DNA of 58,424 bases from Candidatus Woesearchaeota archaeon (GTDB taxonomy: Archaea > Nanobdellota > Nanobdellia > Pacearchaeales > GW2011-AR1). Below the pieces are notes generated by a model. The model was not told the origin of the DNA and did not search any database. It was given only the letters and a program-made list of their open reading frames with translations. Below, piece after piece: positions 2,491 to 56,691 of this stretch. Both the position numbers and the translations under genes were made by a program. The stretch is from positions 1 to 58,424 of the forward strand of contig CAYZNI010000003.1 of NCBI GenBank assembly GCA_964479755.1, in the 5' to 3' direction. How positions within the stretch are numbered: the stretch's first letter is position 1; the number at the start of each line of letters is the position of its first letter.

Positions 2491-2546
2491 TTAATGTCTA
2501 AGTTTTTACCCTTACCTTCTTTTAAAAGATTGTTATAGAGCGATGT

Positions 2547-5137: not shown

Positions 5138-5180
5138 AATGTAGCTCGGTATATAAACTAACCGCAGAATTTGTTAACTT

Positions 5181-31439: not shown

Positions 31440-32150
31440 ATGTCAACTCTAATTGAACTCCGGGATGTAAAAAAGCACTATGAAATGGGCGAGAATACAG
31501 TCAAGGCAGTTGACGGAGTTTCACTCAAGATAGAAAAAGGAGACTTCGTGGCAATTATGGGTCCATCTGGAAGCGGCAAATCAACTATGATGAATCTTGT
31601 TGGCTCCCTTGATTTGGCTACAGAGGGAGAAATTTTTCTTGGCGGGAAAGATATAGAACACCTTACTGAATCTGATCTTGCACAATTGCGCGGAAAAAAA
31701 ATCGGCTTTATCTTTCAAAGCTTTAATCTGATTCCGAATCTAACGGCAAAAGAAAATATCATGTTGCCAATGTTGTTTCAAGGCACGACAAAAGAGCAGC
31801 GGGAAAGAAAAGCCGAAGAGCTGCTTAAATTAGTAGGCCTGCAGGATCGCGAGGATCACTATCCAAATCAGCTTTCAGGAGGCCAACAGCAGCGAGTGGC
31901 AATCGCGCGCTCTCTTTCGAACAACCCTGAAGTTATCTTAGCCGACGAACCTACTGGAAATCTTGACACGAAAACTGGAGAAATGGTTATGTCCTTCTTA
32001 GAAAAACTAAACAAAGAGGGAAAAACAATCATAATGGTTACTCACGACCCTCAAAAGGCTCAAATGCACGCCAAAAAAGTATTTTGGCTAAAAGACGGCA
32101 AAGTTGAAAAAATTACAAAGATGGTAAAGGGGCGTTGGGTTAGGCAATAG
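31440..32150 (+). CDS. ABC transporter ATP-binding protein (MacB/LolD class)
   Basis: Walker A 'GPSGSGKST', signature '[15 protein letters not shown]', Walker B '[11 protein letters not shown]'. Confidence 0.92.
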
Positions 32151-32194
32151 CTAAGCATAGTCAAAATTAAATACATTAAAACTTTCAGAAATAA

Positions 32195-33409
32195 ATGAAA
32201 GACTATTTTTTTATCGCTTCGAAAAATGTGCGTAAGAGAGGCATCCGCTCCTGGTTGACAATGCTGGGAATTTTTTTAGGAATTGCAGCAGTAGTTTCGC
32301 TTATTTCACTTGGGCAGGGCCTTAGAACAGCAATAACTGGGCAGTTTTCAACTTTGTCCACTGACACCTTGACAATAACAAGCGCTGACACCGGGTTTTC
32401 TCCTCCTGGGAGCACGGCAGTTAGAATACTCACAGACCGGGACCTGAAAATAGTCGAGTCAGTTCAAGGTGTAAGGATTACAATTCCCAGATTGTTAAGA
32501 GTCGCAAAAGTTGAATACAATAGATTGCAGCAGTTTAGTTACGTGGTAAGTATGCCTCCAGAAAAAGAAAAAATTGCGGAAGTCTACTCTGCTATGAACA
32601 TAAAAGTTCAAGACGGCCGTCTTCTTCGCGCTGATGATGATGGTAAAGTTCTTCTCGGAAATGACTTTGTTTCAAACAATGCCTTCGAAAAAAAACTGAG
32701 AGTTGGCTCAAAAATTACAATTCAAGGATCAGAATTCGAAGTCGTCGGCTTCTTGAAAAAAGCCAGCACATTTACTATTAACTCTGCAATTATAATGCCT
32801 GAAAAAGATATGAAAAAAGTCTTCAATATAGGGGATGAAATAGATTTAATAGTAGCACGAGTTTTTGATGAGTCTCAAACAAACTCTGTCGCAGAGGAAA
32901 TTTCAAAAAAAATGCGGCGCGACCGGGACCAAAAGCTTGGAGAGGAAGATTTTTTGGTTCAATCCCCAGTTCAGGCCCTCGGAACTGTCAAGACGATAAT
33001 AAATGTGATAAATATCGTAGTTGCCGGAATAGCGGCAATTTCTCTTTTGGTCGGAGGAATCGGAATTGCAAACACAATGTTTACTTCTGTCTTGGAAAGA
33101 ACCCGTGAAATCGGCGTGATGAAAGCCATCGGGGCAAGAAACTCCGACATTTTATCCGTTTTCATTATCGAGGCTGCTTTGCTAGGATTAATAGGAGGCC
33201 TCATAGGAGCTTTCATAGGTTTATCTTTGGCATTTGCTGCCTCCTCGATAGCAAATTCGGCTTTGGGAGAAACCATTCTGACCGTAAGTCCATCTATGCC
33301 CCTCATATTCGGCTCAATCTCGTTCTCCTTGCTTATTGGCATCGCCTCTGGAATAATCCCTGCGCTTCAAGCGTCTAAACTAAACCCTGTGGATGCCCTT
33401 AGAAAATGA
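32195..33409 (+). CDS. FtsX/MacB-type ABC permease, paralog 1
   Basis: TM1, a ~230-aa extracytoplasmic domain, then 3 C-terminal TM helices. 'ANTMFTSVLERTREIGVMKAIGA' is the FtsX-domain motif. Confidence 0.88.
   Translation: MKDYFFIASKNVRKRGIRSWLTMLGIFLGIAAVVSLISLGQGLRTAITGQFSTLSTDTLTITSADTGFSPPGSTAVRILTDRDLKIVESVQGVRITIPRLLRVAKVEYNRLQQFSYVVSMPPEKEKIAEVYSAMNIKVQDGRLLRADDDGKVLLGNDFVSNNAFEKKLRVGSKITIQGSEFEVVGFLKKASTFTINSAIIMPEKDMKKVFNIGDEIDLIVARVFDESQTNSVAEEISKKMRRDRDQKLGEEDFLVQSPVQALGTVKTIINVINIVVAGIAAISLLVGGIGIANTMFTSVLERTREIGVMKAIGARNSDILSVFIIEAALLGLIGGLIGAFIGLSLAFAASSIANSALGETILTVSPSMPLIFGSISFSLLIGIASGIIPALQASKLNPVDALRK
33068..33154 (+). repeat. 87-nt segment 81/87 identical to 34270-34356
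   Basis: Hand alignment. Encodes the identical peptide ANTMFTSVLERTREIGVMKAIGARNSDIL in both permease genes. Confidence 0.9.
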
Positions 33410-34614
33410 TTTCCGATTATTTTAAGCTCGCAGTAAAAAATATTGCTAAAAGAAGGCTAAGAACTTTTCTCACTTTAATTGGCATCTTGATTTCTATAGC
33501 CACAATTTTTGTATTGATAAGCCTCTCGCTTGGACTAGACGCCACTGTAAAAGGCGAGTTTCAAAAGCTCGGCTCGGACAAGTTTTTCATCCAGCCGCGA
33601 GGCCAATTTGGCCCTCCTGGCTCCACGTCAACCGGCTCAATTCTTACACAAGATGATGTGGATGTCGTGAAAAAAGTTGCGGGAGTTAAAGATGTCAGCT
33701 ATTACACCGTTGGTAATGCAAAAATTGAGCATCGTGGTAAAATCAGATTTATTTCAGTAGTTGGAGCAAATCTAGAAAATCCAGAGCTTCTTTTTTCTTC
33801 TTTCGATTTGGATGAAGGCAGGCTTATAGAAAAATCAGACCGCGGAAAAATCTTCATTGGCTCACAATACAAAGAAAATAATTATCTTGGAAATCCAGTT
33901 GGCTTAAGAGCCACAATTACAATTCAGGGTTCGGAATTTAATGTTGTAGGAATAGCAAAAACTCGCGGAACTCCGCAGGATGACAGGTTGATATTCATGC
34001 CAGAAGATGAATTTCGGGAGCTTTTCAACATCTCGGAAAGAGTTGATTTTGTAATAGTTCAAGTTGAAGAAGGCTACGACTTAAACTCAGTTGCGTCAAA
34101 CGCTAAGAAAAGGCTGATGAAATCTCGCGACGTCAATTCCAAGAATATTGATTTTACAATTCTAACCCCTGAAGAGCTTCTAGCGACTATCGCAACAGTC
34201 CTGAATATAATAACCGCCTTTTTGTTCGGAATAGCAGCAATTTCTCTTCTAGTAGGCGGGATTAATATAGCAAATACAATGTTTACTTCTGTCTTGGAAA
34301 GAACCCGCGAAATCGGCGTGATGAAAGCCATTGGCGCGAGAAATTCCGACATTTTAATAATATTTTTGATTGAAGCAGGCCTTCTTGGTTTAGTGGGGGG
34401 CTTAGTGGGAGTTGCTCTTGGATTTTCATTGGCGAAATCCGTGGAATACATCGCAGTCAATATGCTGGCAACAACTCTTCTAAGGCCATCAACTCCGTTT
34501 TACTTATTTGCGGGCTGCTTGGTTTTCGCCTTTCTTGCCGGAACTGTCTCAGGTCTCTGGCCTGCTTGGCGGGCAACAAAAATCAAGCCAGTTGAAGCTC
34601 TAAGATATGAATAA
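33406..34614 (+). CDS. FtsX/MacB-type ABC permease, paralog 2
   Basis: Same architecture as paralog 1. 4-nt overlap with paralog 1. Confidence 0.88.
   Translation: MISDYFKLAVKNIAKRRLRTFLTLIGILISIATIFVLISLSLGLDATVKGEFQKLGSDKFFIQPRGQFGPPGSTSTGSILTQDDVDVVKKVAGVKDVSYYTVGNAKIEHRGKIRFISVVGANLENPELLFSSFDLDEGRLIEKSDRGKIFIGSQYKENNYLGNPVGLRATITIQGSEFNVVGIAKTRGTPQDDRLIFMPEDEFRELFNISERVDFVIVQVEEGYDLNSVASNAKKRLMKSRDVNSKNIDFTILTPEELLATIATVLNIITAFLFGIAAISLLVGGINIANTMFTSVLERTREIGVMKAIGARNSDILIIFLIEAGLLGLVGGLVGVALGFSLAKSVEYIAVNMLATTLLRPSTPFYLFAGCLVFAFLAGTVSGLWPAWRATKIKPVEALRYE
34270..34356 (+). repeat. Second copy of the 87-nt permease segment
   Basis: Six mismatches to 33068-33154, all synonymous. Confidence 0.9.
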
Positions 34615-34907: not shown

Positions 34908-35633
34908 TTATTCGGTGCTGGTGCTCGCCTTCGCCTGAACAATCATTTCAACCATCAACTTTTCAACTGCAGGCATAATTTCGCAGTTCGCGACTTTTAT
35001 GCTATAGCAATTTCCCATTATGTCAACTCGAGTTTCCTCGCCTCCAGTAATCTCAATCACGGGATTGTTTGGCCTGTTTTCACAAGTCACATATTTTAAA
35101 TTGTTTTTTTCGGCTTCTTCTTTGTTCATTAAAGCGCCCTCAATTTTAATTCCATTAGCTGTTAAAAATCCGGAAAGCGAGGCAAATCCCACGCTGCCAT
35201 ATTCGCATCCAGTTAACCCTTTTTCGTCTGTTACAATAAAAACAGTCTTCTTTTTTGCAAGGTCGATTTCTCCAATCAATGGCACGTGATTTTCCCTGGG
35301 ATCTCCTCTTAAAATCATTTTAACAGCTTTAACATTTGCTTGGCTAGTCGCTCTTCCTGTTATTGGAGTGACAAGATTGTAGGAATATGTGTAAAGCGGG
35401 ATATTTTCAAGGGACTCTTTAGTGAAAGTCATCCCCCGATATTCAAACGTTTTCATGCTCTTCAAGACTGAAGTTGACAGGAAAAAACTTACAAAAATCA
35501 CAACCATAACTCCAAGCACCCAATAAAGTTGTCTAGAATAATTAGGAGCTTCTTTCTTTGCTTCAGTTTCCTTTTTTGATTTTTCAGAGATTAGTTCTTT
35601 CTTATCTTCAGTTTCATTTTTCTTTTTTGCCAT
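34908..35633 (-). CDS. N-terminally anchored extracytoplasmic protein (hypothetical, 4 Cys)
   Basis: 241 aa with a Lys/Glu-rich N-tail and one TM. TAATG overlap with the upstream gene. The C-terminal region is paralogous to the 180-aa neighbour. Confidence 0.6.
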   Translation of the reverse strand: MAKKKNETEDKKELISEKSKKETEAKKEAPNYSRQLYWVLGVMVVIFVSFFLSTSVLKSMKTFEYRGMTFTKESLENIPLYTYSYNLVTPITGRATSQANVKAVKMILRGDPRENHVPLIGEIDLAKKKTVFIVTDEKGLTGCEYGSVGFASLSGFLTANGIKIEGALMNKEEAEKNNLKYVTCENRPNNPVIEITGGEETRVDIMGNCYSIKVANCEIMPAVEKLMVEMIVQAKASTSTE

Positions 35634-36175
35634 TAGTTTTTCCCCATCAATTTGAAAACAAGTGCATCAACCGCCCTTGAATCACCCTCAATGAAAACAC
35701 AGCTTTCATTTTTGAAGACTTTATTTTCCTCGCTATCTTTCCAAATTATCAGGTTTTCAGAGCATTCTTTCTCAGGAAGGTCTTTTTCACAAGGGCCGTA
35801 GCACGCTTCTTGTATTTTGGACGAGTACTTTGAAAGAAACTGAAGAGCATCAGTCAAAACGCTGGGGTTTTCAGCAGCAATATAAAGAGTTTTGCCAACA
35901 TAATCATTCAAGTTGTAGTTTCCCTCGATAGAAACATTGTTAACCTGCTCAATTGTGTTTGAAAAATAAAAAGTTTGCCCTTCAAATTCAACGCCGCCTT
36001 CTAAATTTTGCTGCCCATTTTGTGTTCCATCGCTATTTCCTTGAAAAGTTGAAAAAGCATATCCGATGGTTCCAAGAACTAAAACCGCGAGCATAAACAG
36101 GCTTATATAAGTCGCATTTTTCTTCTTTTTCTCCTCCAAATGCTGTTCCATTCCAACCTTTCTCATATTTCTCAT
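35633..36175 (-). CDS. N-terminally anchored extracytoplasmic protein (hypothetical, 4 Cys)
   Basis: 180 aa with one TM after a basic N-terminus. Lies downstream of the S-layer gene. Confidence 0.6.
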   Translation of the reverse strand: MRNMRKVGMEQHLEEKKKKNATYISLFMLAVLVLGTIGYAFSTFQGNSDGTQNGQQNLEGGVEFEGQTFYFSNTIEQVNNVSIEGNYNLNDYVGKTLYIAAENPSVLTDALQFLSKYSSKIQEACYGPCEKDLPEKECSENLIIWKDSEENKVFKNESCVFIEGDSRAVDALVFKLMGKN

Positions 36176-36447: not shown

Positions 36448-38859
36448 TTAAGCTGTGGTAACTACCGGAGTAATTGCTGTAGCAACTGTTCCAGTGTACT
36501 TCTTGCCAGGCGTTGTGTCAACTGTTAGAGTTTTCAATGCAGTTGCAGCATTAGTTGTATCGCCAGCATTATAACCAGCTACTAATGTTGCTACCTTTCC
36601 TCCAGTTCTTGCGAAAGTCTGGATTAAGTATTGACCGTCTCCAACCATCGTTGCATCAGTGAAGCCCTGTCCGCAAAGAGCTGTTGCGCTTCCAAGAAGT
36701 TCAGCAGCCATTGTGTTGACGCAAGAGCCTCCAACAACAATTAAGTTTTGGTTGCTTAACGTTGCCGCTTCTGTGTCAGTGACTGGCACCGCCACAGTGG
36801 TTGTTCCTCCTCCTTCAGAGGATACCATTGCGTTAACTTCAGACAAGAATACATCTGCATAGGATTCATCACCGTGGTATGTAAGTTCAAGATCATCTTG
36901 ATCTCCGCCAGTGTCTCGCATTGTCTTTGTCGCCAAAGGCGAGTTCACATAGCCGATATATTTATCAGAACCATCGGCAGTTTCGAATTCATCGCTTCCG
37001 CTTAATGAAGCAAGTGAAATTCCGCTCACCGTAGGATCACCAGAGTTAGGGCTTAAAGTAGCCGTAAGTGATGCGCCATCGTTGATGTTTCCATCTTCAT
37101 CTTCCTCAGTGAAGTTCATTGTGAAGGATGTAGGAGGTGCATGAGTTATGTTAATTATTCCGTCACCTGTAGCGGTTACACTATCAACTGGTAGCTGTAT
37201 CTTCAAACCTTCTTTGGTGATTAATCTGTCAGCATAAGCCGTTGCAGATCCCGAACCAGATAAGGCAATAGTCGCAGCTTCAGTACCGCCGTTTTTAGTA
37301 GCAGCACTAAGAGTGACTTCTACATCACCCCAAGATTCAGTTTCTCCAATATCAAGTGTTTTAGTTGAACCGTCAGCTAGATTCTTGATAGTTGTAGTGT
37401 TCTTGGCAGGTGTGCTTGTATCAACTTTTGTGATTTGGAATAGATAGGACTCACCATCATCTCCGCTAATAGCTGTAGCCGGAATCCACTCTACATTATC
37501 AATGTTTGTAAGAGTTAATGTAGGGTCGCTTCCTGTCGCGGTAAGCAATTGCTTCGTTGATGAATCTCCCAATCCTGCAATTCCTGTTCCAGTACTATTA
37601 AGATATAAAAGATTCAAGTCAATATCGCCGTCCTTTATCTCAGTTCTTAACTTCCAGGAATCGCTTCCATCAGGCTCGACTTTTGTCATCTCCTCTTTTG
37701 GAAAGACAAATCCTCCCATCGAAATCTTGATTGTGTTGAAGCCAGGCATTACAAGGTCCTTTCCAGGAACAATCCAGGCGTCATCATCAAGATTCCATTC
37801 AAGAGTTATGCTGTCAAGGTCTGTGGAGCTGTTTGTTAAATAAGCAGTCACAATATGTGAGTAGCCATTAGCATCTTCATTAGCGCTAATATCCTCTCCA
37901 TTTACCTGAACTTCTTGTCCATTTTCCAAGACAATTTTTCCAGTTCCAAGAGTAAATGTCACTTTGCTTATTCCGCTATCTCTTGCGCTGTACAGGACAT
38001 CCTTGACTCCAATGTAGGTGTCTTCAGCTACTTTTTGGGTAGCTCCCTCCGTGAGTTTCTTTGTCGTAACTCCGTTGACTGTAAACATTGCTTCATTGTC
38101 ATCAATGAATGTTGCAGATACATCATAACTTTGGTCTCCAACTGTAACTGTCGTAGTTTCTCCTTCAGCAACAATTGCTTCATTAGCAGTGTCTAAAAGA
38201 GTCAACTTGACTCCATTAGCTGTGTTGTCTGCTTGAGAGATATAGAATGTTTTTCCAAGAAGGGTTATATCTGTTGTTTCAAGGTCATCAAAGTCAGTCG
38301 TTGTTCCTTCTGCAGCATCGCTAAAATCTAGAGTATAGTTCAATACATGAGCTCCCGAAGCAAGGTTTAATCCTATCTTAGGGTCATATTCATTAAACTC
38401 CGAATCTGCGAAGTGAGTTAATGTCAAAGCACTACCAGGTGTAATTGTTTGATCATAGTCAAACTCATCAAAATTGAGGTTTTGGTATGTTCCAGATGCA
38501 AGAACTGTTGACAATTCTCCATCATCCAGAGTGGAGTAAAAGTCCGTAAAGTCCTCTCCAAGGTTGAATTTATTGTTTGTTTTTTCAATCTTAACAAAAT
38601 CTCCCCCGCTGACTGTTGACTCTTCACCCGTTGATGTTCCGACAGAAGCAGTTAGTTTGCTGCTTAAATCAGATTGCACGCCAGTAGCTGCAACTAGATC
38701 TGATGCTGCTGCATCAGTACCTCCGTAAACTATAGCAACATTAGCAGTATTTCCGCTGACAAATGGCGCAGGATAGTTTGCTGCCGCAGCTATTCCAACT
38801 GTAGAACCAATCATTAAAGCGCTTGTAACCAAGCTAGCAATTTTTTTAAATTGTATCAT
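36448..38859 (-). CDS. S-layer protein (Methanococcus-type S_layer_N/S_layer_C-like ends)
   Basis: Sec signal peptide. N-terminus 'ANYPAPFVSGNTANVAIVYGGTDAAASDLVAA' and C-terminus 'NQNLIVVGGSCVNTMAAELLG'. Acidic, Thr/Ser/Gly-rich, with only 2 Cys and six N-x-S/T sequons. Strong AGGAGG Shine-Dalgarno, long leader and T-rich terminator. Confidence 0.75.
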   Translation of the reverse strand: MIQFKKIASLVTSALMIGSTVGIAAAANYPAPFVSGNTANVAIVYGGTDAAASDLVAATGVQSDLSSKLTASVGTSTGEESTVSGGDFVKIEKTNNKFNLGEDFTDFYSTLDDGELSTVLASGTYQNLNFDEFDYDQTITPGSALTLTHFADSEFNEYDPKIGLNLASGAHVLNYTLDFSDAAEGTTTDFDDLETTDITLLGKTFYISQADNTANGVKLTLLDTANEAIVAEGETTTVTVGDQSYDVSATFIDDNEAMFTVNGVTTKKLTEGATQKVAEDTYIGVKDVLYSARDSGISKVTFTLGTGKIVLENGQEVQVNGEDISANEDANGYSHIVTAYLTNSSTDLDSITLEWNLDDDAWIVPGKDLVMPGFNTIKISMGGFVFPKEEMTKVEPDGSDSWKLRTEIKDGDIDLNLLYLNSTGTGIAGLGDSSTKQLLTATGSDPTLTLTNIDNVEWIPATAISGDDGESYLFQITKVDTSTPAKNTTTIKNLADGSTKTLDIGETESWGDVEVTLSAATKNGGTEAATIALSGSGSATAYADRLITKEGLKIQLPVDSVTATGDGIINITHAPPTSFTMNFTEEDEDGNINDGASLTATLSPNSGDPTVSGISLASLSGSDEFETADGSDKYIGYVNSPLATKTMRDTGGDQDDLELTYHGDESYADVFLSEVNAMVSSEGGGTTTVAVPVTDTEAATLSNQNLIVVGGSCVNTMAAELLGSATALCGQGFTDATMVGDGQYLIQTFARTGGKVATLVAGYNAGDTTNAATALKTLTVDTTPGKKYTGTVATAITPVVTTA

Positions 38860-38945
38860 TTTTTTACTAGCCTCCTTTCAACTTTTTACCAATTTGCAGT
38901 CCCGCAGGACACCCCCTAAGGGAAGTCGTTTCCGACTCGCTATTG
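38860..38945 (-). promoter_or_regulatory. S-layer mRNA leader with Shine-Dalgarno and a GC-rich structured island
   Basis: Minus strand: AGGAGG ends 12 nt before the ATG. Positions 38897-38940 are GC-rich and contain AGUCG-GAAA-CGACU (GNRA loop), GUCC-UGCG-GGAC (UNCG-type loop) and CCC-UUA-GGG. Confidence 0.45.
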
Positions 38946-39152
38946 ATTAATTCCTTAGAGGAAAGTAGTTTAAAAAGCTTTCTATATTAATTGTCAATTT
39001 TCAACCTTTTACCCCGAAATTTTTAATTTTATTTATAAATTTGATGTTGTTACTAAGAAGTTTTTCATTTCATTTCATTTTTCATTTAGAGATATCTGAT
39101 TTTATACAAATATATGTTAGAAAAACACATATATCTTTGATTCATGCGAAAA

Positions 39153-39161
39153 CTATATATA
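39153..39161 (+). promoter_or_regulatory. TATA-like box for the wHTH gene
   Basis: 'CTATATATA' begins 32 nt upstream of the ATG at 39185. Confidence 0.4.
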
Positions 39162-39184
39162 GGAGAAAAAACCATATATGTAAA

Positions 39185-39541
39185 ATGGCAGAAAAAACTA
39201 AAACTCGGGAAGTAACAATTGTCGACGAGGGAGGCACGTTTAACACATTTTTTAAAATGTTCAAAACAGAACAGAGTTTCGATTTTGAAGGTCTCGCCAC
39301 CTTAAGGAAAATTTTGAGTAATGAGAAGGCAAAAATTCTTCACACTATCAAGGCAAAAAAACCAAAGTCGATTTACGAGCTTGCAAAACAGCTGGATCGG
39401 GATTTCAAGTCAGTCCTAGATGATGTCAAACTCCTCGTGAAATTCGGATTCATTGATATGATAGCCGAAAAAAGCGGCAAGCGAGAAAGGCTGCGCCCGA
39501 TTGTAGCTGTGGACTCAATGCACATTTACATTAAAATTTAA
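39185..39541 (+). CDS. Winged-helix (ArsR/MarR-like) DNA-binding protein
   Basis: 118 aa from the ATG at 39185. 'KILHTIKAKKPKSIYELAKQLDRDFKSVLDDVKLLVKFGFI' fits an HTH plus wing. Sits between the S-layer and pilin-like genes on the opposite strand. Confidence 0.6.
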   Translation: MAEKTKTREVTIVDEGGTFNTFFKMFKTEQSFDFEGLATLRKILSNEKAKILHTIKAKKPKSIYELAKQLDRDFKSVLDDVKLLVKFGFIDMIAEKSGKRERLRPIVAVDSMHIYIKI

Positions 39542-39790: not shown

Positions 39791-40276
39791 TTAGTTCAAG
39801 CAAATCTTTAAGTTAAAACTGACTTCCTGCAATGGTTTGCCCCCGCTTCCTCTAGAAGAACTGCAAGCACCTCCAGAACCTTGTGATACTAGTGTTGTGT
39901 TCCCGGCTTTTATTGTAAATCTATAGGCTCTATTCGGGCTGTTGCTCCCAAAAACCCACGAAGATTCTATTGCTTCTTTGGTAGAGTTCTTTAAAACCTC
40001 ACAAGCACTCTTTCCATTTTCACAAAGAGAGTTGCTTGTAGCGCAATTTGTTGCCAAATCCCCTAGGTTTTCATAACTAAATCCTTGATTAAGAGAACAA
40101 TCGCTGCTATATTGCATCATCGCCTCCACAAATTGCGAAACCTCAGAGCTCTCGACACTCAAGTCCTTGTTCTTTCCGCTAAGGTAAATCCCTAAAAAAA
40201 TGACAAGAATTACTGTAATAAGTAAAACTATCAATACAAATCCTACAATTTCCTCCTGTCCTTTTTTGCTTTTCAT
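39791..40276 (-). CDS. Class III signal-peptide (archaeal type IV pilin-like) protein, 6 Cys
   Basis: 'MKSKKGQ|EEIVGFVLIVLLITVILVIFLGIY' is a short basic leader, G-Q, then a hydrophobic helix. 4-nt overlap with the upstream gene. Confidence 0.65.
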   Translation of the reverse strand: MKSKKGQEEIVGFVLIVLLITVILVIFLGIYLSGKNKDLSVESSEVSQFVEAMMQYSSDCSLNQGFSYENLGDLATNCATSNSLCENGKSACEVLKNSTKEAIESSWVFGSNSPNRAYRFTIKAGNTTLVSQGSGGACSSSRGSGGKPLQEVSFNLKICLN

Positions 40277-40803
40277 TCTATTTTTTTGGCCGAAGCGTGA
40301 ATCTTCCCCATTTCATACTGATATTTCCCTAATTCCCTGTCCCAATAAGCCAAAGCTATAAAAGCACTTTTTGCATTTACACTGCCCCCATCATCCAATA
40401 CACTTATCTTATCACACTCTGGAAAATTGAATCTAGTGCACTCAACCTTTGGCTTCTCAGGGTAAACTATCTCTATCTGCAAATATCCCAGATTCCAAAA
40501 CTTGTTGTAAGTCCCAAACTGCTTGTTCAAGTCAGCCAGCATCAAAGACTTCTCCAAGTCAACGCAAGAATTGCAATCGCTGGAAGAAGTAAACGCTAAT
40601 TCAGGAGAAGATGCAAGTTTCTTTGCGAGTTCTCTGGCCTCATTTTCTCTAAGCGTGTTCGCGCTGTCTTTAAGTCCTGCCAGTGAAAAAACAACCACGA
40701 GTATCCCCACCATCGCGAAAAATACCACTAGCCCGACTAGCATAAACGCCATCTGCTGTATTTTCATCTGTCCCCTAGAACAGTCTGCAATCAAGCCCTT
40801 CAT
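40273..40803 (-). CDS. Class III signal-peptide (pilin-like) protein, 4 Cys in the mature part
   Basis: 'MKGLIADCSRGQ|MKIQQMAFMLVGLVVFFAMVGIL'. An alternative start at 40767 (AGGGGA Shine-Dalgarno) would remove the RGQ leader. Confidence 0.55.
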   Translation of the reverse strand: MKGLIADCSRGQMKIQQMAFMLVGLVVFFAMVGILVVVFSLAGLKDSANTLRENEARELAKKLASSPELAFTSSSDCNSCVDLEKSLMLADLNKQFGTYNKFWNLGYLQIEIVYPEKPKVECTRFNFPECDKISVLDDGGSVNAKSAFIALAYWDRELGKYQYEMGKIHASAKKIE

Positions 40804-41779
40804 TTTTCAGTTTCAAGTCCTCCGCTTCAATTTCCAATTGAGTTAAATCTCCGGTTAGAGAAATAGAACTTGATTTGTCGATATAATTCTGCAAAGAAAC
40901 CGGAAGCAGCGGCGCCGACCTGCACTTTCCAGTTGAAGTCAGGTAATTAGACTTTAACTTAAGCAGATTTGCCAAGTTTGAAGCCCTCGCCGCAAGCCTT
41001 CTATTCTCGCAATTGAACTTTTCTGGAGAAGAAAATATTGCCGCCAGCATAAGTCCATACTTGTTCGTGGGATCACTAGCATCTGTGTAACTTTCTTGCT
41101 GATTTCCAAATTCAGGGTAGCTGACAATGTTCCCGTTCTTCACAACAACATCGCAGTCTGAACCAGAAACATAGAAGCAAACTCTGATGCTTCCCACATC
41201 GCAACTCGAAACCGAGTTTACAAATGCAACATTCTTCTTGTCCACACCCGCATCTTTAAGTTCCTGCTCAAGTTCAGGAATTGTGTCAACAAAGCAATAT
41301 TTCTGTGTGTCGGGCCAGACAATTATCAAGTCAGCAATTTTAAACGGATATATAAGAGGCTTCGACAGCACATAAAACTCTTTTTCTGCCTCTATGTCAT
41401 CTCGCGCGAAAAGATATTTGTTGTGAAAGCTGCTGCTTACTCCTGGCTCTGGCTGCCAGGTCGACCCGACTCCAGATTTTACCAAAGCGCTTATTTTTTG
41501 TGTTCCAAATATATTTTCAGCACTTGGAGCAATGCAATCATTGAACAGCCTAGTATGCTGATTTCTTGGGAGCCCCAAAACTGCAAATTTTATATCTTCA
41601 AGCCCGGTCTCGCTCGGCGTCAGCAAATTCCCAATTTCTTTCGCCCTGGTCGTGTCGCTACCCAGTCTTCCAATTTCAACAATCTTGAACACAGCATAAA
41701 TCGCCAGGAAAATAATAAACGCTCCGACTAAAACCGCAAAAATCCAAGCAAAGCTGAACTCATATCCTTTCTTGTTCAT
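40775..41779 (-). CDS. Pilin-like or N-anchored surface protein, 8 Cys
   Basis: From the ATG at 41779: 'MNKKG|YEFSFAWIFAVLVGAFIIFLAIYAV'. 334 aa. Starts 1 nt after the upstream stop. Confidence 0.6.
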   Translation of the reverse strand: MNKKGYEFSFAWIFAVLVGAFIIFLAIYAVFKIVEIGRLGSDTTRAKEIGNLLTPSETGLEDIKFAVLGLPRNQHTRLFNDCIAPSAENIFGTQKISALVKSGVGSTWQPEPGVSSSFHNKYLFARDDIEAEKEFYVLSKPLIYPFKIADLIIVWPDTQKYCFVDTIPELEQELKDAGVDKKNVAFVNSVSSCDVGSIRVCFYVSGSDCDVVVKNGNIVSYPEFGNQQESYTDASDPTNKYGLMLAAIFSSPEKFNCENRRLAARASNLANLLKLKSNYLTSTGKCRSAPLLPVSLQNYIDKSSSISLTGDLTQLEIEAEDLKLKNEGLDCRLF

Positions 41780-41780
41780 T

Positions 41781-42308
41781 TTAAGTTTTGGAGAGTATGA
41801 CAAATATCCCATTATTAGAGGCTGAAGTCTCCAGGTTCACATTGAATTTTCCTTTGGTGTCTTTTGAAATACAGAAAAATCCTCCGGTAACTTTCACATG
41901 CTCCAGAACATTAGTGCACATGTCTCCGCCGCACGCTTTTTGCGGCGGATACATAAACACGTTGTTTCTTCCTCCATTGTCATCGCAATTGCTGTCTCTC
42001 AATGTTCTTTGCACGTTAGCATCTGCTCCTGAGACACTCTGGCTCAGGTTGCCAAAGCAAACTTTTTCAATTTTAGAGGGCAAATTGCCTTTGAAAACAT
42101 CCCTGTACTGGTCCGCATTCCACGCCTTGTCTATTTCGCCTTTCAAATCATTATAATACGTTCCTATTTTTCCGCAATTCGCAAGTTCCATAAAATGGGA
42201 AATTGCGTAAAATGCAACAGCAATAATCACAACTATTAAGATTATTGAGAAAATGACTCCATAGGACATTCCAAGGACTTCCTGCCCTCTTTTATTCTCT
42301 CTTTGCAT
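41781..42308 (-). CDS. Class III signal-peptide (pilin-like) protein, 6 Cys
   Basis: 'MQRENKRGQ|EVLGMSYGVIFSIILIVVIIAVAFYAI'. First gene of the four-gene string. Confidence 0.65.
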   Translation of the reverse strand: MQRENKRGQEVLGMSYGVIFSIILIVVIIAVAFYAISHFMELANCGKIGTYYNDLKGEIDKAWNADQYRDVFKGNLPSKIEKVCFGNLSQSVSGADANVQRTLRDSNCDDNGGRNNVFMYPPQKACGGDMCTNVLEHVKVTGGFFCISKDTKGKFNVNLETSASNNGIFVILSKT

Positions 42309-50989: not shown

Positions 50990-52930
50990 TTATCTTCTCG
51001 AAATTCTAACAGCCACAACAATTATCAAAATTATCAGGATGACATTTACTGCGCCGATTATCCACAAGTAAGTGTTTCCTCCGCCCAGATTGAATGAGAA
51101 TCCCTGGCTCTGTTTAGGAGCAACTTCAACCGTGACATCTCTTGATTCAGTCTTTCCATTAGATATAGTTTCAATCGTAAAGCTCTGGTCGCCTTCAGCG
51201 TCTTCATTGACCTTGAACTTGATTGTAACTTCAGCTTCTTCTCCAGAATCAAGAGTTAGGCTTTTCTTTGATATGCTGTCCAATTCAGCCCAAGAGTCAA
51301 AGCCATTTACATCAAGAACATAAGTATTCTTTGTCGCGCCAACATTTGTAATCTTTGCCTTTACGCTAAAAGTCTCCCCGGCAATAGAATCTGAACCAAG
51401 TGAAGCGCTTATCAAAGCAGTTCTTCCGGTTGCACCGCTTCCACTTCCACCAGTTCCGTTGTTACCGCCAGTTGAACCTCCGGCGCATCCAAGAACCTTC
51501 AAGGTGACAGGAGTATCTTCATCAGAGTCCTGCCTGTAAGTATTGCTGCTGCTCCTATAGTCGTACTCGGAACTTAATAGCAAAGTGTAGGCTTTGTTTT
51601 GCGCATTTTGTGGAACCGTGAAATCAAATCTTATTTGCTGGCTATCTCCCTTGTCCAAGTTGTTTCTTATTTCAACTGATTGATCAATCTTAAGCTCAGA
51701 ATTTTTCAGATTAATCTTAACTTGATCCTGATCCTTGTCTCCAACGTTCAATACATCCAACATCAAGGACACGCTATCTCCGCAAGTTGCCTCAGTTGGG
51801 CTGGACTGAATCTTGTCAAATAAGATGAATCTTCCTTCATCACTGGTTCTTTTTACCTTTATCTCTCGGAATTGGTCTCCATCAAGAAGGTCTGTGCATT
51901 GTGTTGATTCCGCTCCGTCAGAATAAGCTTTCGCAATTAGTCTGTAATTTCCGGAATCAATGTCAGCAGGGACCCTGAATTCGAACGTGACTGTGTCATC
52001 ATCGCCATCGCCTAAATCTCCAATGTTGATTTCATCTTCATCACTATTCGTAAAATCAAAATCATTCACAACGTTTTTTCCATTGCCGTCAAGTATTCCT
52101 AATCTGACATTTACATCATCTATGTCATCATCTCCTGTGTTTTCAGCCTTAACCTGTACACTTATAGTGTCAAGTAATTCCCATTCATCATCTTTTCCAG
52201 TTCCAGTGTTATCAATCTTAAATTTTGTAATCTCTAATTCTCCAAGATTTCCGTTCTTGCAGAAATTGATTGTTCCAAATGTAGCAGTTACAGACTTGGC
52301 TGCATTCATAGTTACTGTGCAAGTTGAGCTTGTTCCAGAGCAAGCGCCGCTCCATCCTGAGAATGAAGAGCCGCTTGACGCTGCTGCAGTTAATATAACG
52401 TTAGTTCCGCTCGCATAACTTTCAGCGCAGTCGCTTCCACAATTAATTCCAGATGGTGAGGATGTTATTATTCCGCTGCCCGCTCCGGCTTTTGCAACTG
52501 TCAATGCGAAGTTGCTGGATCCGCCTGTTACAGGTACGCTAAATTGTACTGAATCAGCAGTAGCGGTTCCCGAAGGGTTTCCAATTATTGTTCCAGCGAT
52601 GTTTCCAGATTGTCCGGCAGGAATATTGACTGTTGCTGTGATTGTTATTGTCTGTCCAATTGCCAAGTTTATAGGGTTTGACTCGCTAAACGTCATTGAA
52701 CTTATTGTTCCAGAAACGGTCGAACTTGAAAGGTTAAAATTAAAGCTGTCAGAAGTTCCTGTATATGTAGCATTAAATACCACTTGAAATGAAGTTGCGG
52801 TAGATTGAACACTGGCAGGTTGTGAAACCAAGTCCATATTGAAAACTTGGGCGCTGCCAAATCCAGCAGCAAAAGTTATGACTAAAAATGAAAATGCGCT
52901 TAAAATCAAAAAATTTGTTTTGCTGTTCAT
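50990..52930 (-). CDS. Secreted surface protein with an InlB-B-repeat-like domain, CARDB-like domains and a C-terminal sorting signal
   Basis: Sec signal peptide. 'GSGIITSSPSGINCGSDCAESYASGTNVILTAAASSGSSFSGWSGACSGTSSTCTVTMNAAKSVTATF' fits the divergent InlB B-repeat pattern. A Gly/Ser linker follows, and the C-terminus is 'LGGGNTYLWIIGAVNVILIILIIVVAVRISRR'. Confidence 0.7.
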   Translation of the reverse strand: MNSKTNFLILSAFSFLVITFAAGFGSAQVFNMDLVSQPASVQSTATSFQVVFNATYTGTSDSFNFNLSSSTVSGTISSMTFSESNPINLAIGQTITITATVNIPAGQSGNIAGTIIGNPSGTATADSVQFSVPVTGGSSNFALTVAKAGAGSGIITSSPSGINCGSDCAESYASGTNVILTAAASSGSSFSGWSGACSGTSSTCTVTMNAAKSVTATFGTINFCKNGNLGELEITKFKIDNTGTGKDDEWELLDTISVQVKAENTGDDDIDDVNVRLGILDGNGKNVVNDFDFTNSDEDEINIGDLGDGDDDTVTFEFRVPADIDSGNYRLIAKAYSDGAESTQCTDLLDGDQFREIKVKRTSDEGRFILFDKIQSSPTEATCGDSVSLMLDVLNVGDKDQDQVKINLKNSELKIDQSVEIRNNLDKGDSQQIRFDFTVPQNAQNKAYTLLLSSEYDYRSSSNTYRQDSDEDTPVTLKVLGCAGGSTGGNNGTGGSGSGATGRTALISASLGSDSIAGETFSVKAKITNVGATKNTYVLDVNGFDSWAELDSISKKSLTLDSGEEAEVTIKFKVNEDAEGDQSFTIETISNGKTESRDVTVEVAPKQSQGFSFNLGGGNTYLWIIGAVNVILIILIIVVAVRISRR

Positions 52931-53062
52931 TTTAATGTTGTAATTTTATAGTTACACATATGCTATTTAAACTTTTCTGTGATTGACTACACACATCAAC
53001 CTTGCATTTCCTCAGCAAGAAAATTTAAATAAATATATATGCACTAAAATATAGGTGAAAAA

Positions 53063-53440
53063 ATGCCAATCAAGTCTCGTGAAAATCTTTTGGGCGCCTG
53101 GGCTTTCCTCGTCGGAATTATCCTGGCTATTGCCGCAGGAATCTTTTCAGGCTTGCGAGCCAATTCCTGGGTGTTTACAGTTCTTGCCGCTCTGGGAGTT
53201 GCCGTCGGATACTTTGTATCAGAAAAAGAATCTAGAACTTTCCTTATAGCCGCAGTTGCTCTAGTAATAGTAAGTTTTGCAGGGATACAGGGAATGGTTC
53301 TGGATTCCGCGATTCGCGGCATCGCAATTGGAAAAATGGTTTCTGCAGTCCTTGGAGCTCTTTTGATTATGTTTGTCCCCGCAGCAATCATCGTCGCGCT
53401 TAAGACGGTTTTCGCAATCTCCACGATTGGGAAGGAATGA
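53063..53440 (+). CDS. Small 4-TM membrane protein (hypothetical)
   Basis: 125 aa with regular hydrophobic helices. Preferred over the fully overlapping antisense ORF 53044-53457. Confidence 0.5.
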   Translation: MPIKSRENLLGAWAFLVGIILAIAAGIFSGLRANSWVFTVLAALGVAVGYFVSEKESRTFLIAAVALVIVSFAGIQGMVLDSAIRGIAIGKMVSAVLGALLIMFVPAAIIVALKTVFAISTIGKE

Positions 53441-53793
53441 TTTTGAAAAACTGCCAAACTTATTAAAAAGTTCTAGCCCAAAAAGACTTATTGCTGTTAT
53501 TCTATCTTGTTCAGACTTGAAAACATCAATTAAGTGGATGGTTTTTGCATAAAAAAATAAAACTATCTCTTTGCAGAAGAGAAAAAAGAGGGCTGTAATT
53601 TTTAATGAAAAATTCCCTGCCCTTCATATTTACTTATGAGTCAAGATTCAAGAAAGCCAAGATGTTATCCAGTGCAGTAATTCTCTTGTGGCTTTTTGTT
53701 TGGCAGGGTTTGTTTTAAAACACGAAAATGGCTTAACTCTCTGTTCTTTTAAAGAACTTTGCAAAATTGGTCTTGAAAAATATGGGAAATAGA

Positions 53794-56091: not shown

Positions 56092-56112
56092 ACATCATTG
56101 ACAAATTTACAA

Positions 56113-56691
56113 ATGATAAAACAAGAATATAAAAGACTCGAGGAAACTCTCGTCCAAGTTGGGCTGAGAATTGCAAAGCGCGGCGAGGGAGCGCTCTTTG
56201 TCGTAGGCAAAGTAAAATACAAACCGCTGATTGACCAATCAGTTCCAGCTTTTAAGGCTACAGAAAATCCAAAGTTACTTGAGTCTCTTGCATTGATTGA
56301 CGGTGCTGTAATAATTAACCCCAAGGGATTCGTTGAATCTTACGGCGTAATGATAAAATCTACCGAGACTTTTAAAAACTTCGGCACAAGGCACAGCGCC
56401 GCACTTTCTGCATCAAAAACTAAAGGAAACCTTGTAGTAATAGTATCTGAAGAAGACAAAAAAGTCAAAATCCTGAAGGAAGGAAAGATGGTAATGCAGC
56501 TGGATGCATTGCAAAAAGATGTTGAAAAATCAGTTGACAAAGCTGTAGCAATTTTGGAATCTGTCGGTGCCGGAACTCTAGGCACGATTGGCACAAGTCT
56601 TTTGGTTCCAAGTCTTGGTCTCGCACTTCTACCAGGCGTCGTAGTCTTCGGCTCAGCTTATTATCTGGCTAAAGTTCTTAGAAGAAACTAA
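56113..56691 (+). CDS. Diadenylate cyclase (DAC/DisA_N) domain protein with a C-terminal membrane anchor
   Basis: 'RGEGALFVVG', 'LIDGAVIINPKG' (DGA motif), 'GTRHSAALSAS' (RHR position reads RHS) and 'VVIVSEEDKKVKILKEGK'. C-terminal hydrophobic 'LGLALLPGVVVFGSAYYLA'. Confidence 0.65.
   Translation: MIKQEYKRLEETLVQVGLRIAKRGEGALFVVGKVKYKPLIDQSVPAFKATENPKLLESLALIDGAVIINPKGFVESYGVMIKSTETFKNFGTRHSAALSASKTKGNLVVIVSEEDKKVKILKEGKMVMQLDALQKDVEKSVDKAVAILESVGAGTLGTIGTSLLVPSLGLALLPGVVVFGSAYYLAKVLRRN

What the first reader, a model, noticed from the sequence alone, without database searches (positions are those of the whole stretch)
39791..42308. Four tandem class III signal-peptide (pilin-like), even-Cys proteins with no assembly genes, next to the S-layer gene
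Seen: four consecutive minus-strand genes are joined by a 1-nt gap, a 29-nt overlap (or a 7-nt gap with the alternative start) and a 4-nt overlap. Each begins with a short basic leader, then Gly, then a ~20-25 residue hydrophobic helix. Three carry [KR]GQ (KRGQ-EVLG, SRGQ-MKIQ, KKGQ-EEIV) and one carries KKG-YEFS. The predicted mature parts contain 6, 8, 4 and 6 cysteines, always an even number. Established: [KR]G followed by Q at +1 is the prepilin-peptidase site of archaeal (EppA/PibD-processed, DUF361-type) pilins. Inference: this may be a set of major and minor pilin-like subunits forming a disulfide-stabilised fibre or surface complex. No PilB/PilC-type ATPase or platform and no prepilin peptidase lies in the window. 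The only neighbours are a divergent wHTH regulator and the S-layer gene. In a putatively episymbiotic DPANN cell this block is a plausible host-attachment apparatus, and I recognise no similarity to characterised pilins beyond the N-terminus.
Basis: partly seen in the sequence, partly recalled or inferred. Interest (0 to 1): 0.72.

Follow-up and report, generated by a model that had tools for sequence, protein, structure and literature searches.

The report
Four pilin-like genes beside S-layer gene
Four tightly packed genes in a tiny DPANN archaeon encode unrelated membrane-anchored surface proteins that share a pilin-type N-terminus; the block sits beside the cell-wall (S-layer) gene in about 80 related species, so it is probably a new envelope module rather than a proven attachment pilus.

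Summary
Four co-oriented, overlapping or abutting genes (42308-39791, minus strand) each encode a basic leader, [KR]G, Q or Y, and a hydrophobic helix. Their mature parts carry 6, 8, 4 and 6 cysteines. This is not chance. In 80 species-level relatives (Pacearchaeota/Woesearchaeota-type DPANN) the order g1-g2-g3-g4, wHTH, S-layer gene and two further anchored paralogues is kept almost without exception. The -1 residue is only G, A or S. Q at +1 is invariant in g3 and g4 and present in 33 of 35 scored g1. The N-terminal segment is the best-conserved part of each protein, as in type IV pilins, but not in the two neighbouring anchor proteins. The four mature domains are unrelated to each other. 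They match no Pfam or NCBIfam family. Two confident AlphaFold models match nothing in the PDB. No ATPase, platform or prepilin peptidase lies in the window or near the cluster in relatives. The one exception is a bacterial-type PilB-like ATPase adjacent to it in one species.

Best reading: a lineage-specific operon of class III signal-peptide, pilin-like subunits forming a hetero-oligomeric, disulfide-stabilised module tied to the S-layer. The fibre and host-attachment roles are untested. It is a new variant of a known kind.

The parts
41781..42308 (-). g1: 175-aa pilin-like protein. Leader MQRENKRG, then QEVLGMSYGVIFSIILIVVIIAVAF. Family consensus [KR][GAS]Q-x-x-[LI]SFGMIFSIILI. 6 Cys in the window protein, 2 conserved.
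40775..41779 (-). g2: 334-aa pilin-like protein (start MNKKG; the longest ORF would start at 41812). Consensus [KR][GA]-[YF]E[FM]SF[AS]W[IL]FA. 8 conserved Cys. AF2 model: a 43-residue N-terminal helix, a beta-rich domain and a C-terminal helical bundle. No PDB or BFVD match. The family has about 1,860 clusters at 50% identity.
40273..40803 (-). g3: 176-aa pilin-like protein. Consensus [KR][GAS]Q[LM]KIQQMAF[MV]L. Overlaps g2 by 29 nt. 4 Cys after the motif.
39791..40276 (-). g4: 161-aa pilin-like protein. Consensus [KR][GAS]QEE[MI]VGF, with Q7, E8, E9, V11, G12 and F13 invariant. 4 conserved Cys. AF2 model: an N-terminal helix, three short helices and a 4-stranded antiparallel sheet. No PDB match.
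39185..39541 (+). Winged-helix regulator of the HVO_A0114 family (PF25212). Convergent with g4 and divergent from the S-layer gene. Present in 66 of 68 loci with room for it.
36448..38859 (-). S-layer protein (PF05124 S_layer_C, Methanococcales type). Has a Sec-type signal peptide and a strong GGAGG ribosome-binding site, and no membrane anchor. Present in 46 of 48 loci with at least 4 kb after g4.
35633..36175 (-). d1: 180-aa N-terminally anchored protein with 4 conserved Cys. Follows the S-layer gene in relatives. Lacks the [KR][GAS]Q motif and has a poorly conserved TM segment.
34908..35633 (-). d2: 241-aa paralogue of d1 (hhalign probability 93%). Long basic cytoplasmic N-terminus, one TM segment, 4 conserved Cys.

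Best explanation
The block is a lineage-specific operon of four different type IV pilin-like proteins carrying class III signal-peptide-like N-termini. It is found in Pacearchaeota/Woesearchaeota-type DPANN archaea.

Shown:
- Four tightly coupled genes encode bitopic proteins.
- Their only common feature is a basic leader, a small residue (G/A/S), Q or an aromatic residue, and then a highly conserved hydrophobic helix.
- The extracellular domains are mutually unrelated, cysteine-paired and of unknown fold.
- The operon is fixed next to wHTH, the S-layer gene, d1 and d2.

Inferred:
- A prepilin-type (GxGD) peptidase encoded elsewhere removes the leader after the G/A/S residue. This leaves an N-terminal Gln, possibly cyclised.
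- The four mature proteins are made in roughly equal amounts. They pack through their conserved N-terminal helices into one hetero-oligomeric, disulfide-stabilised pilin-like module. This would resemble a minor-pilin or pseudopilus tip or stalk more than a long homopolymeric fibre.
- The module sits in, or passes through, the S-layer and works with it. Possible roles are an envelope-spanning or S-layer-associated structure, or the primer or tip of a filament whose major subunit and motor are encoded elsewhere.
For: - Gene structure and junctions.
- Motif statistics: -1 is only G/A/S (g3 31/43/3; g4 25/40/10). Q at +1 occurs in 77/77 g3, 75/75 g4 and 33/35 g1. K/R at -2 occurs in most.
- The same motif occurs in a fifth unrelated family (about 250-300 aa; [KR][GAS]Q[VI]T[IL]F) encoded upstream of g1 in the more distant clade.
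- d1 and d2, in the same loci, lack the motif. This is an internal control.
- The N-terminal segment is the best-conserved part of g1-g4 (0.70-0.72 against 0.47-0.56). This is not so in d1 and d2.
- Mature domains of g1-g4 are mutually unrelated by hhalign, so the shared N-terminus is not due to paralogy.
- AF2 models are confident: g2 pLDDT 92.9 with a 43-residue N-terminal helix leading into a beta domain; g4 pLDDT 87.9.
- Conserved even cysteine sets.
- Synteny with wHTH, S-layer gene, d1 and d2 holds in essentially every locus long enough.
- A PilB/GspE-family ATPase (PF00437, E=3e-109) lies directly beside g1 in one species. Orphan copies lie among archaeal housekeeping genes in other contigs, one of them labelled Pacearchaeota.
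- Background: pilin genes away from assembly loci and S-layer-like genes in T4P loci are known in archaea (PMC4858521). TFF 'system 1' (Epd-like, with its own dedicated signal peptidase) is reported in Methanococcales, Thermococcales and DPANN (bioRxiv 10.64898/2026.04.22.720090).
Against: - No prepilin peptidase, platform protein or ATPase was found in the window.
- No GxGD polytopic A24-like ORF was found in about 1.3 Mb of related loci.
- The ATPase adjacency is seen in 1 of about 85 loci, and the other copies are orphans.
- A groundwater study states that type IV pilus components are missing from DPANN genomes (bioRxiv 10.1101/2020.05.14.094862).
- The Pfam and NCBIfam scans listed no pilin, archaellin or class III signal-peptide family.
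- Foldseek finds no pilin-like structure for g2 or g4.
- In the g4 model the N-terminal helix ends at residue 34 and does not run on into the globular domain as in classical pilins.
- The residues just after the putative cleavage site are polar or charged (QEE, QLKIQQ, YE), which is atypical.
- Cleavage, oligomerisation and the S-layer link are all inferred.
Confidence: 0.5

Rival explanations
1. The four proteins are ordinary uncleaved signal-anchored (type II) membrane proteins. Together with d1 and d2 they form an S-layer anchoring or assembly complex that has nothing to do with type IV filament machinery. In this view the [KR][GAS]Q motif is a juxtamembrane interaction or topology motif.
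For: - Strict linkage to an S-layer gene whose product has no membrane anchor of its own.
- No peptidase, platform or ATPase in the window or in nearly all related loci.
- No pilin family or fold match.
- A published statement that DPANN lack T4P components (10.1101/2020.05.14.094862).
- In the g4 model the TM helix is separated from the globular domain by a loop.
Against: - It is hard to explain why five unrelated families share exactly K/R, then G/A/S, then Q before the helix, while the co-located anchors d1 and d2 do not.
- Simple anchors do not usually have TM segments more conserved than their ectodomains.
- Some relatives do carry a PilB-family ATPase, once directly adjacent to the cluster.
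Confidence: 0.25
2. One reading: the four genes are major and minor subunits of a true extended, disulfide-stabilised adhesive pilus used for attachment to a host cell.
For: - Pilin-like N-termini and conserved helices.
- In the distant clade the block is preceded by very large, Cys-rich secreted proteins that could be adhesins, plus a fifth pilin-like gene.
- A PilB-like ATPase exists in some relatives.
- Other DPANN lineages are reported to have type IV pili (PMC8561730).
Against: - No candidate major pilin stands out. All four genes are single-copy, translationally coupled and conserved one-to-one.
- The ectodomains are well conserved (g2 mean column identity 37% among 30 sequences), unlike fast-evolving major pilins.
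- Nothing here ties the block to a host or to attachment.
- The conserved partner is the S-layer gene, not an assembly machine.
Confidence: 0.15
3. A bindosome-like arrangement. The proteins carry class III signal peptides but are functional surface proteins (binding proteins or enzymes) tethered near the S-layer, as with the Sulfolobus sugar-binding proteins, and are not structural subunits.
For: - Class III-like signals sit on four unrelated globular domains.
- SPIII-bearing binding proteins are reported as widespread in archaea (10.64898/2026.04.22.720090).
Against: - No substrate-binding or enzymatic family is detected.
- The fixed four-gene order, tight coupling and universal presence beside the S-layer gene fit a structural complex better.
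Confidence: 0.07
4. Chance resemblance or mis-called ORFs.
For: None beyond the shortness of the motif.
Against: Protein-level conservation in more than 100 homologues per family, conserved synteny and conserved motif.
Confidence: 0.01

Closest known systems
Archaeal type IV pilins and other class III signal-peptide proteins, especially the Methanococcus maripaludis Epd system (minor pilins EpdA-C, major pilin EpdE, dedicated peptidase EppA; Q at +1; DUF361)
   Same: Short basic leader, a small residue at -1, Gln at +1, a conserved hydrophobic N-terminal helix, several different pilin-like genes in tandem, and pilin genes located away from the assembly genes. The neighbouring S-layer protein is also of the Methanococcales type (PF05124).
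   Different: The Pfam and NCBIfam scans listed no pilin or class III signal-peptide family. The residues after the cleavage site are polar or charged. The ectodomains are Cys-paired and have no detectable pilin or Ig-like fold match. No peptidase, ATPase or platform is linked. The block is locked to the main S-layer gene rather than to a TFF locus.
Bacterial minor (pseudo)pilin sets such as GspH-I-J-K (T2SS) or FimU-PilV-W-X (T4P)
   Same: Four different pilin-like genes in one tightly packed operon. One of them is about 330 aa and carries an extra helical domain (GspK is 327 aa). The set is expected to form a 1:1:1:1 tip or priming complex through N-terminal helices. The only linked ATPase found in a relative is of the bacterial PilB/GspE type.
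   Different: No sequence or profile similarity (hhalign probabilities of 4% or less). There is no G-F-T-L-x-E motif with E5. There is no Foldseek match. The host is an archaeon with an S-layer and no outer membrane or secretin.
Sulfolobus bindosome (class III signal-peptide sugar-binding proteins assembled by BasEF close to the S-layer)
   Same: Class III-type signals on non-filament surface proteins that function in the S-layer space.
   Different: No binding-protein domains here, and no Bas-like genes are linked.
SlaB-type S-layer membrane anchors (Sulfolobales)
   Same: Membrane-anchored proteins encoded next to an anchor-less S-layer protein. This applies best to d1 and d2.
   Different: SlaB has a Sec signal, a coiled-coil stalk and a C-terminal TM segment. 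The proteins here have N-terminal helices and compact Cys-paired domains. No homology was detected.

Membership tests
Archaeal type IV pilin / class III signal-peptide protein | N-terminal basic leader, G/A (rarely S) at -1, followed by a hydrophobic stretch of about 20 residues | tested here: met
   Met in the window and in 56-78 homologues per family. Position -1 is only G, A or S, -2 is mostly K/R, and +1 is Q. Caveat: 2-6 polar residues follow the site before the hydrophobic core.
Archaeal type IV pilin / class III signal-peptide protein | Match to curated N-terminal pilin or archaellin models in Pfam or NCBIfam | tested here: not met
   The scans listed no pilin, archaellin or class III signal-peptide family at E<=1 (Pfam) or E<=10 (NCBIfam).
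Archaeal type IV pilin / class III signal-peptide protein | N-terminal helix is the most conserved part of the protein | tested here: met
   Top-residue frequency is 0.70-0.72 in the N-terminal segment against 0.47-0.56 in the rest for g1-g4. The control anchors d1 and d2 give 0.55 and 0.41 against 0.51 and 0.47.
Archaeal type IV pilin / class III signal-peptide protein | Leader removed by a prepilin peptidase (PibD/FlaK/EppA, peptidase A24) present in the genome | not testable with these tools
   The window is the whole 58-kb contig. It contains no A24 hit. A heuristic scan found no A24-like ORF in the related loci held. The genomes themselves could not be searched.
Archaeal type IV pilin / class III signal-peptide protein | Cognate assembly ATPase (PilB/FlaI family) and platform protein (TadC/FlaJ/PilC) | tested here: inconclusive
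   None in the window. A T2SSE ATPase lies next to g1 in L016 only. Orphan T2SSE genes occur among archaeal housekeeping genes on other contigs, one of them labelled Pacearchaeota. No T2SSF was seen.
Archaeal type IV pilin / class III signal-peptide protein | Pilin fold: a long N-terminal helix projecting from a beta-rich globular domain similar to solved pilins or archaellins | tested here: inconclusive
   g2 has helix 21-63 followed by a beta domain. g4 has helix 6-34, a loop, then an alpha/beta domain with a 4-stranded sheet. Foldseek finds no pilin; the best E-values are 0.07 and 0.48, with TM-scores of 0.3 or less.
DUF361 / EppA-substrate pilins | Gln at +1 | tested here: met
   Q at +1 in g1, g3 and g4, and in all g3 and g4 homologues. 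g2 has Y, F or L instead.
DUF361 / EppA-substrate pilins | Sequence match to a curated class III signal-peptide (DUF361-type) Pfam model | tested here: not met
   The Pfam scan at E<=1 listed no such family for any of the four proteins.
Bacterial T2SS/T4P minor (pseudo)pilins | G at -1, F/M at +1, E at +5, and profile similarity | tested here: not met
   The N-termini differ: E is at +2 or +3, and there is no FTLxE. hhalign against E. coli GspG-K gives probabilities of 4% or less.
S-layer anchor (SlaB-like) | Sec signal, coiled-coil stalk, C-terminal TM segment | tested here: not met
   All six small proteins have an N-terminal TM helix and no C-terminal anchor.

The most novel reading that the evidence does not exclude
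Pacearchaeota/Woesearchaeota-type DPANN archaea have turned type IV pilin-like subunits into a fixed, non-filamentous, disulfide-stapled four-subunit pillar. This pillar, together with d1 and d2, anchors or organises the S-layer, or forms a gated passage through it. If so, it is a pilin-derived envelope organelle of new folds, processed by a prepilin-type peptidase but assembled without a dedicated linked TFF motor. It may also be the contact device of these episymbionts.
Probability: 0.2. Interest if true: 0.8.

Novelty: new variant of a known kind. Interest (0 to 1): 0.58.

Why it matters
No DPANN S-layer or envelope complex has been resolved. The way Pacearchaeota and Woesearchaeota hold their S-layer and touch other cells is unknown.

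This work defines a concrete eight-gene envelope module: four pilin-like proteins, a regulator, the S-layer protein and two anchors. The module is present in at least 133 species-level genomes, and its g2 marker family has about 1,860 clusters at 50% identity. The folds are confidently predicted but unprecedented.

It yields directly testable targets for AF-Multimer, metaproteomics and cryo-ET. It also widens the range of proteins that carry class III-type signals.

If the peptidase proves absent from these genomes, the conserved [KR][GAS]Q motif would itself need a new explanation.

Tried and rejected
- **Family scans.** Pfam and NCBIfam scans of all four proteins, d1 and d2 gave only sub-threshold noise.
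- **PDB sequence searches.** Profile searches with the g2 and g4 alignments gave only TM-helix noise.
- **Structure searches.** Foldseek of the g2 and g4 models against the PDB, and of g2 against BFVD, gave nothing.
- **Homology among the four.** hhalign of the mature domains found none, so the idea that they are paralogues is rejected. Only d1 and d2 are related.
- **Bacterial pseudopilins.** hhalign against E. coli GspG-K found nothing.
- **Fishing an archaeal prepilin peptidase.** I queried the PDB with E. coli GspO to reach FlaK, without success. phmmer with GspO and GspF on all held loci found nothing. A GxGD polytopic-ORF heuristic found only an SPP/presenilin-type protein in L087. The peptidase question therefore stays open.
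- **Assembly genes around the ATPase.** I looked at the neighbourhoods of three archaeal PilB-like ATPases. All are orphan genes among housekeeping genes.
- **Literature.** Searches for this cluster (Pacearchaeota with S-layer and pilin; DPANN with class III signal peptide, PibD or prepilin peptidase) found no description of it. The supplements of the 2026 TFF preprint are not held.
- **RNA genes.** tRNA and Rfam scans of the window found nothing.
- **Promoters.** Inspecting the g1 upstream region by eye gave no decisive TATA/BRE call. The sigma-70 scanner was not used because it does not apply to archaea.
Full report
**1. Observation**

| Gene | Coordinates | Length |
|---|---|---|
| g1 | 42308..41781 | 175 aa |
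| g2 | 41812..40775 | 345 aa; 334 aa from the conserved start MNKKG at 41779 |
| g3 | 40803..40273 | 176 aa |
| g4 | 40276..39791 | 161 aa |

With the starts that homologues support, the junctions are a 1-nt gap, a 29-nt overlap and a 4-nt overlap.

The N-termini read:
- g1: MQRENKRG|QEVLGMSYGVIFSIILIVVIIAVAF
- g2: MNKKG|YEFSFAWIFAVLVGAFIIFLAIYAV
- g3: MKGLIADCSRG|QMKIQQMAFMLVGLVVFFAMVGILVVVF
- g4: MKSKKG|QEEIVGFVLIVLLITVILVIFLGIYL

After the motif the proteins contain 6, 8, 4 and 6 cysteines. A loose class-III-like pattern matches only seven ORFs in the 58-kb window, and four of them are these genes.

**2. The genes are real and conserved as a unit**

- g2 has 120 listed homologues at 29-60% identity over 97% of its length. 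All that carry a name are labelled hypothetical protein. Every organism label among them is Pacearchaeota, Nanoarchaeota or simply 'archaeon'.
- A full HMMER scan of 1.84 billion cluster representatives finds 1,858 clusters at E<=1e-3 and 1,022 at E<=1e-10. All 150 listed are single-domain proteins of about 290-370 aa.
- g4 has 88 homologues; those with organism labels are again Pacearchaeota, Nanoarchaeota or 'archaeon'.
- Scanning one genome per GTDB species gave 133 species with a g2 relative. I analysed the best 80 loci.
- In these loci the order g1-g2-g3-g4 (+), wHTH (-), S-layer gene (+), d1 (+), d2 (+) is kept in essentially every contig long enough.
- The wHTH gene follows g4 in 66 of 68 loci. 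The S-layer gene follows in 46 of 48 loci. One of the two exceptions is a contig end; the other (L030) has insertions. All seven genes from g2 to d2 are present in 43 loci.
- Independent metagenome contigs show the same layout down to 29-33% identity.
- The g1/g2, g2/g3 and g3/g4 junctions are -4, +1 or -7 nt in most loci. This marks an operon with translational coupling.
- In the window, the wHTH gene (39185-39541, PF25212) is convergent with g4 and divergent from the S-layer gene across a 325-bp spacer.

**3. What the four proteins share, and what they do not**

The N-terminal motif is conserved within each family:

| Family | Consensus |
|---|---|
| g1 | [KR][GAS]Q-x-x-[LI]SFGMIFSIILI |
| g2 | [KR][GA]-[YF]E[FM]SF[AS]W[IL]FA |
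| g3 | [KR][GAS]Q[LM]KIQQMAF[MV]L |
| g4 | [KR][GAS]QEE[MI]VGF |

- Position -1 is only G, A or S (g3: 31 G, 43 A, 3 S; g4: 25 G, 40 A, 10 S).
- Position +1 is Q in 77/77 g3, 75/75 g4 and 33/35 g1.
- Position -2 is K or R in most sequences.

From established knowledge, basic residues, then G/A at -1, then a hydrophobic helix is the recognition site of archaeal prepilin peptidases (PibD, FlaK, EppA). EppA substrates have Q at +1.

Three controls make a shared recognition signal the most economical explanation:
- The mature domains of g1-g4 are not related to each other by profile-profile comparison, with probabilities below 3%. The common N-terminus is therefore not inherited from a common ancestor gene.
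- d1 and d2 are membrane-anchored proteins in the same loci. They lack the motif.
- The N-terminal segment of g1-g4 is their best-conserved part (0.70-0.72 against 0.47-0.56), as in pilins. The TM segments of d1 and d2 are no better conserved than the rest of those proteins.

In addition, a fifth unrelated family (about 250-300 aa) is encoded upstream of g1 in the more distant clade. It again starts with [KR][GAS]Q[VI]T[IL]F.

**4. Structure and family membership**

- None of the four proteins, nor d1 or d2, reaches any Pfam or NCBIfam threshold. The scans listed no archaeal pilin, archaellin or class III signal-peptide family.
- The AlphaFold2 model of g2 is confident (118-sequence alignment, pLDDT 92.9, pTM 0.87). 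It shows a 43-residue N-terminal helix (21-63) running into a beta-rich domain, followed by a C-terminal helical bundle.
- The g4 model (83 sequences, pLDDT 87.9) shows helix 6-34, a lower-confidence linker, three short helices and a four-stranded antiparallel sheet.
- Foldseek finds no significant match for either model in the PDB (best E 0.07 and 0.48), and none for g2 among viral models.
- PDB profile searches and hhalign against E. coli GspG-K are also empty.
- The conserved cysteines number 2 (g1), 8 (g2), 3 to 6 (g3), 4 (g4), 4 (d1) and 4 (d2). This fits extracellular disulfides.

The proteins therefore behave like pilins at the N-terminus. By any sequence or fold test available here, they are not members of a described pilin family.

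**5. Assembly and processing genes**

All window ORFs of about 180 aa or more were scanned against Pfam. There is no T2SSE, T2SSF or Peptidase_A24 hit. The rest of the window encodes:
- a large protein-glycosylation and glycan island (1-29 kb, with two STT3-like genes);
- a MacB-type ABC transporter;
- housekeeping genes.

The window is the whole contig (longest_contig 58424), so the genome could not be searched further.

In about 1.3 Mb of related loci, phmmer with E. coli GspE, GspF and GspO found one hit. It is a 609-aa PilB/GspE-family ATPase (PF00437, E=3e-109) in L016, lying directly between Pop5 and g1 on the opposite strand.

Among the few relatives that carry organism labels, most are Patescibacteria (CPR) or other bacteria, and one is labelled Pacearchaeota. 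Copies of about 600 aa sit among archaeal housekeeping genes (FtsZ, Spt4/5, ribosomal proteins, fibrillarin) on three further contigs. None of these has a platform or peptidase gene nearby.

A heuristic for polytopic GxGD proteins found only a presenilin/SPP-type gene.

The literature is divided:
- A groundwater study states that T4P components are missing in DPANN (10.1101/2020.05.14.094862).
- Other work reports type IV pili in several DPANN lineages (PMC8561730), and TFF systems 1 and 4A and Aap-like systems in some DPANN (10.64898/2026.04.22.720090).
- Makarova et al. show that pilin genes outside T4P operons, and S-layer-like genes inside T4P loci, are common in archaea (PMC4858521).

I found no paper that describes this cluster.

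**6. Interpretation**

Shown: a conserved operon of four unrelated bitopic proteins with a common, highly conserved pilin-type N-terminus. It is fixed beside a regulator, the S-layer gene and two paralogous anchors.

Inferred:
- The leaders are removed after G/A/S by a prepilin-type peptidase encoded elsewhere.
- The four subunits are produced in similar amounts. They assemble through their family-specific N-terminal helices into one hetero-oligomeric, disulfide-stabilised module. Note the conserved acidic +2/+3 residues in g4 and g2 and the conserved Lys at +3 in g3.
- The module works in or through the S-layer.

The nearest functional analogy is a minor-pilin or pseudopilus tip set, such as GspH-I-J-K or the Epd minor pilins. 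A long homopolymeric fibre is less likely, because no gene looks like a fast-evolving, duplicated major pilin.

In the more distant clade the block is extended upstream by a fifth pilin-like gene and three very large secreted proteins, two of which are very Cys-rich (for example 73 Cys in 1,350 aa). This fits a larger surface structure. That extension is absent from the window.

The main rival is that the proteins are uncleaved signal anchors forming an S-layer anchoring complex. The absence of linked machinery and of pilin folds favours this. The motif statistics and the conservation controls disfavour it.

**7. Novelty and score**

Class III signal-peptide proteins and tandem pilin genes are a known kind. 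The new elements are:
- four (or five) unannotated families with confident but unmatched folds;
- their invariant linkage to the main S-layer gene across at least 80, and probably 133 or more, species of one DPANN lineage;
- the apparent lack of a linked assembly system.

I rate this a new variant of a known kind, with interest about 0.58. The decisive missing test is a whole-genome search for the prepilin peptidase, ATPase and platform in genomes that carry the cluster. Multimer modelling and N-terminal proteomics should follow.

Noticed in passing
window 1-29000: Large protein-glycosylation and glycan biosynthesis island. It has two STT3/AglB-like genes (18854-20740 and 25995-28781), many GT2/GT4/GT9 glycosyltransferases, a flippase (23774-24988), epimerases/dehydratases, a carbamoyltransferase (6211-7971) and a UDP-GlcNAc 2-epimerase. 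It lies a few kb from the S-layer cluster, so the contig reads as one envelope-biogenesis region.
   Followed up: partly
window 54-6233: MBOAT (54-1502) and a DltD-like protein (1483-2490), plus two GDSL-type acylhydrolases (3866-5137 and 5181-6233). This is a bacterial-style O-acylation or D-alanylation-like set in an archaeon.
   Followed up: no
window 31440-34614: MacB-type ABC transporter (an ATPase plus two MacB_PCD/FtsX permeases) right next to d2. The same trio lies beyond d2 on the 215-kb contig carrying P0005, so in close relatives it may belong to the same envelope neighbourhood.
   Followed up: partly
L016:7489-9318 (also L085:10001-11821, L086:5101-6954, L087:10001-11911): Bacterial-type PilB/GspE ATPase (PF00437) in contigs that are otherwise typically archaeal. 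Among the few relatives with organism labels, most are Patescibacteria (CPR) or other bacteria. It lies directly beside g1 in L016. Elsewhere it is an orphan gene among archaeal housekeeping genes, with no PilC or peptidase nearby. This may be a CPR-to-DPANN transfer.
   Followed up: partly
L001:200-9192 (similar in 30-46 other loci; two copies of part of it in L083:1385-9331): In the more distant clade, g1 is preceded by conserved genes for secreted proteins of 1,350, 615 and 751 aa with no Pfam family. Two are extremely Cys-rich (73 and 45 Cys). There is also a fifth pilin-like family (about 250-300 aa) with the N-terminus [KR][GAS]Q[VI]T[IL]F. None of these has a relative in the window.
   Followed up: partly
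window 50990-52930: 646-aa surface protein with InlB B-repeat (Flg_new_2), CARDB, NPCBM_assoc and Ig-like domains. A CARDB-type protein of 530-560 aa also lies just beyond d2 in L001, L083 and L088.
   Followed up: no
L087:394-1335: A presenilin/SPP-type GxGD intramembrane protease (PF06550, motif GGGDV) about 9 kb from the orphan PilB-like ATPase. It was the only GxGD polytopic ORF found in all held loci. It is probably unrelated to the finding, but it belongs to the same mechanistic class as prepilin peptidases.
   Followed up: no
window 56098-56691: Diadenylate cyclase (DAC domain) gene, implying c-di-AMP signalling in this reduced genome.
   Followed up: no
L030:5818-10342 and L028:10921-12565: Rare disruptions of the block. 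In L030, four unrelated genes are inserted between g2 and g3, and no wHTH or S-layer gene follows within 6 kb. In L028, one 169-aa gene is inserted between g3 and g4. In L083 a 663-aa alpha/beta-hydrolase gene sits between g4 and wHTH.
   Followed up: partly
L075 (DAOTCN010000002.1) and L073 (MWBV01000002.1): Records titled 'Candidatus Paceibacterota bacterium' and 'Candidatus Diapherotrites archaeon' carry the full Pacearchaeota-type cluster. The bacterial label in particular looks like a taxonomic mislabel or a mis-binned contig.
   Followed up: no
window 53044-53457 (-) / 53063-53440 (+): Two almost fully overlapping ORFs on opposite strands. The plus-strand ORF begins MPIKS-RENLLGAWAFLVGIILAIAAGIF and was picked up by my loose signal pattern. 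Which strand codes was not resolved.
   Followed up: no
window 38860-39184: 325-bp divergent spacer between the HVO_A0114-type regulator and the S-layer gene. The S-layer gene has a strong GGAGG ribosome-binding site, while g1 has none that is obvious. Regulator binding sites were not searched for.
   Followed up: no
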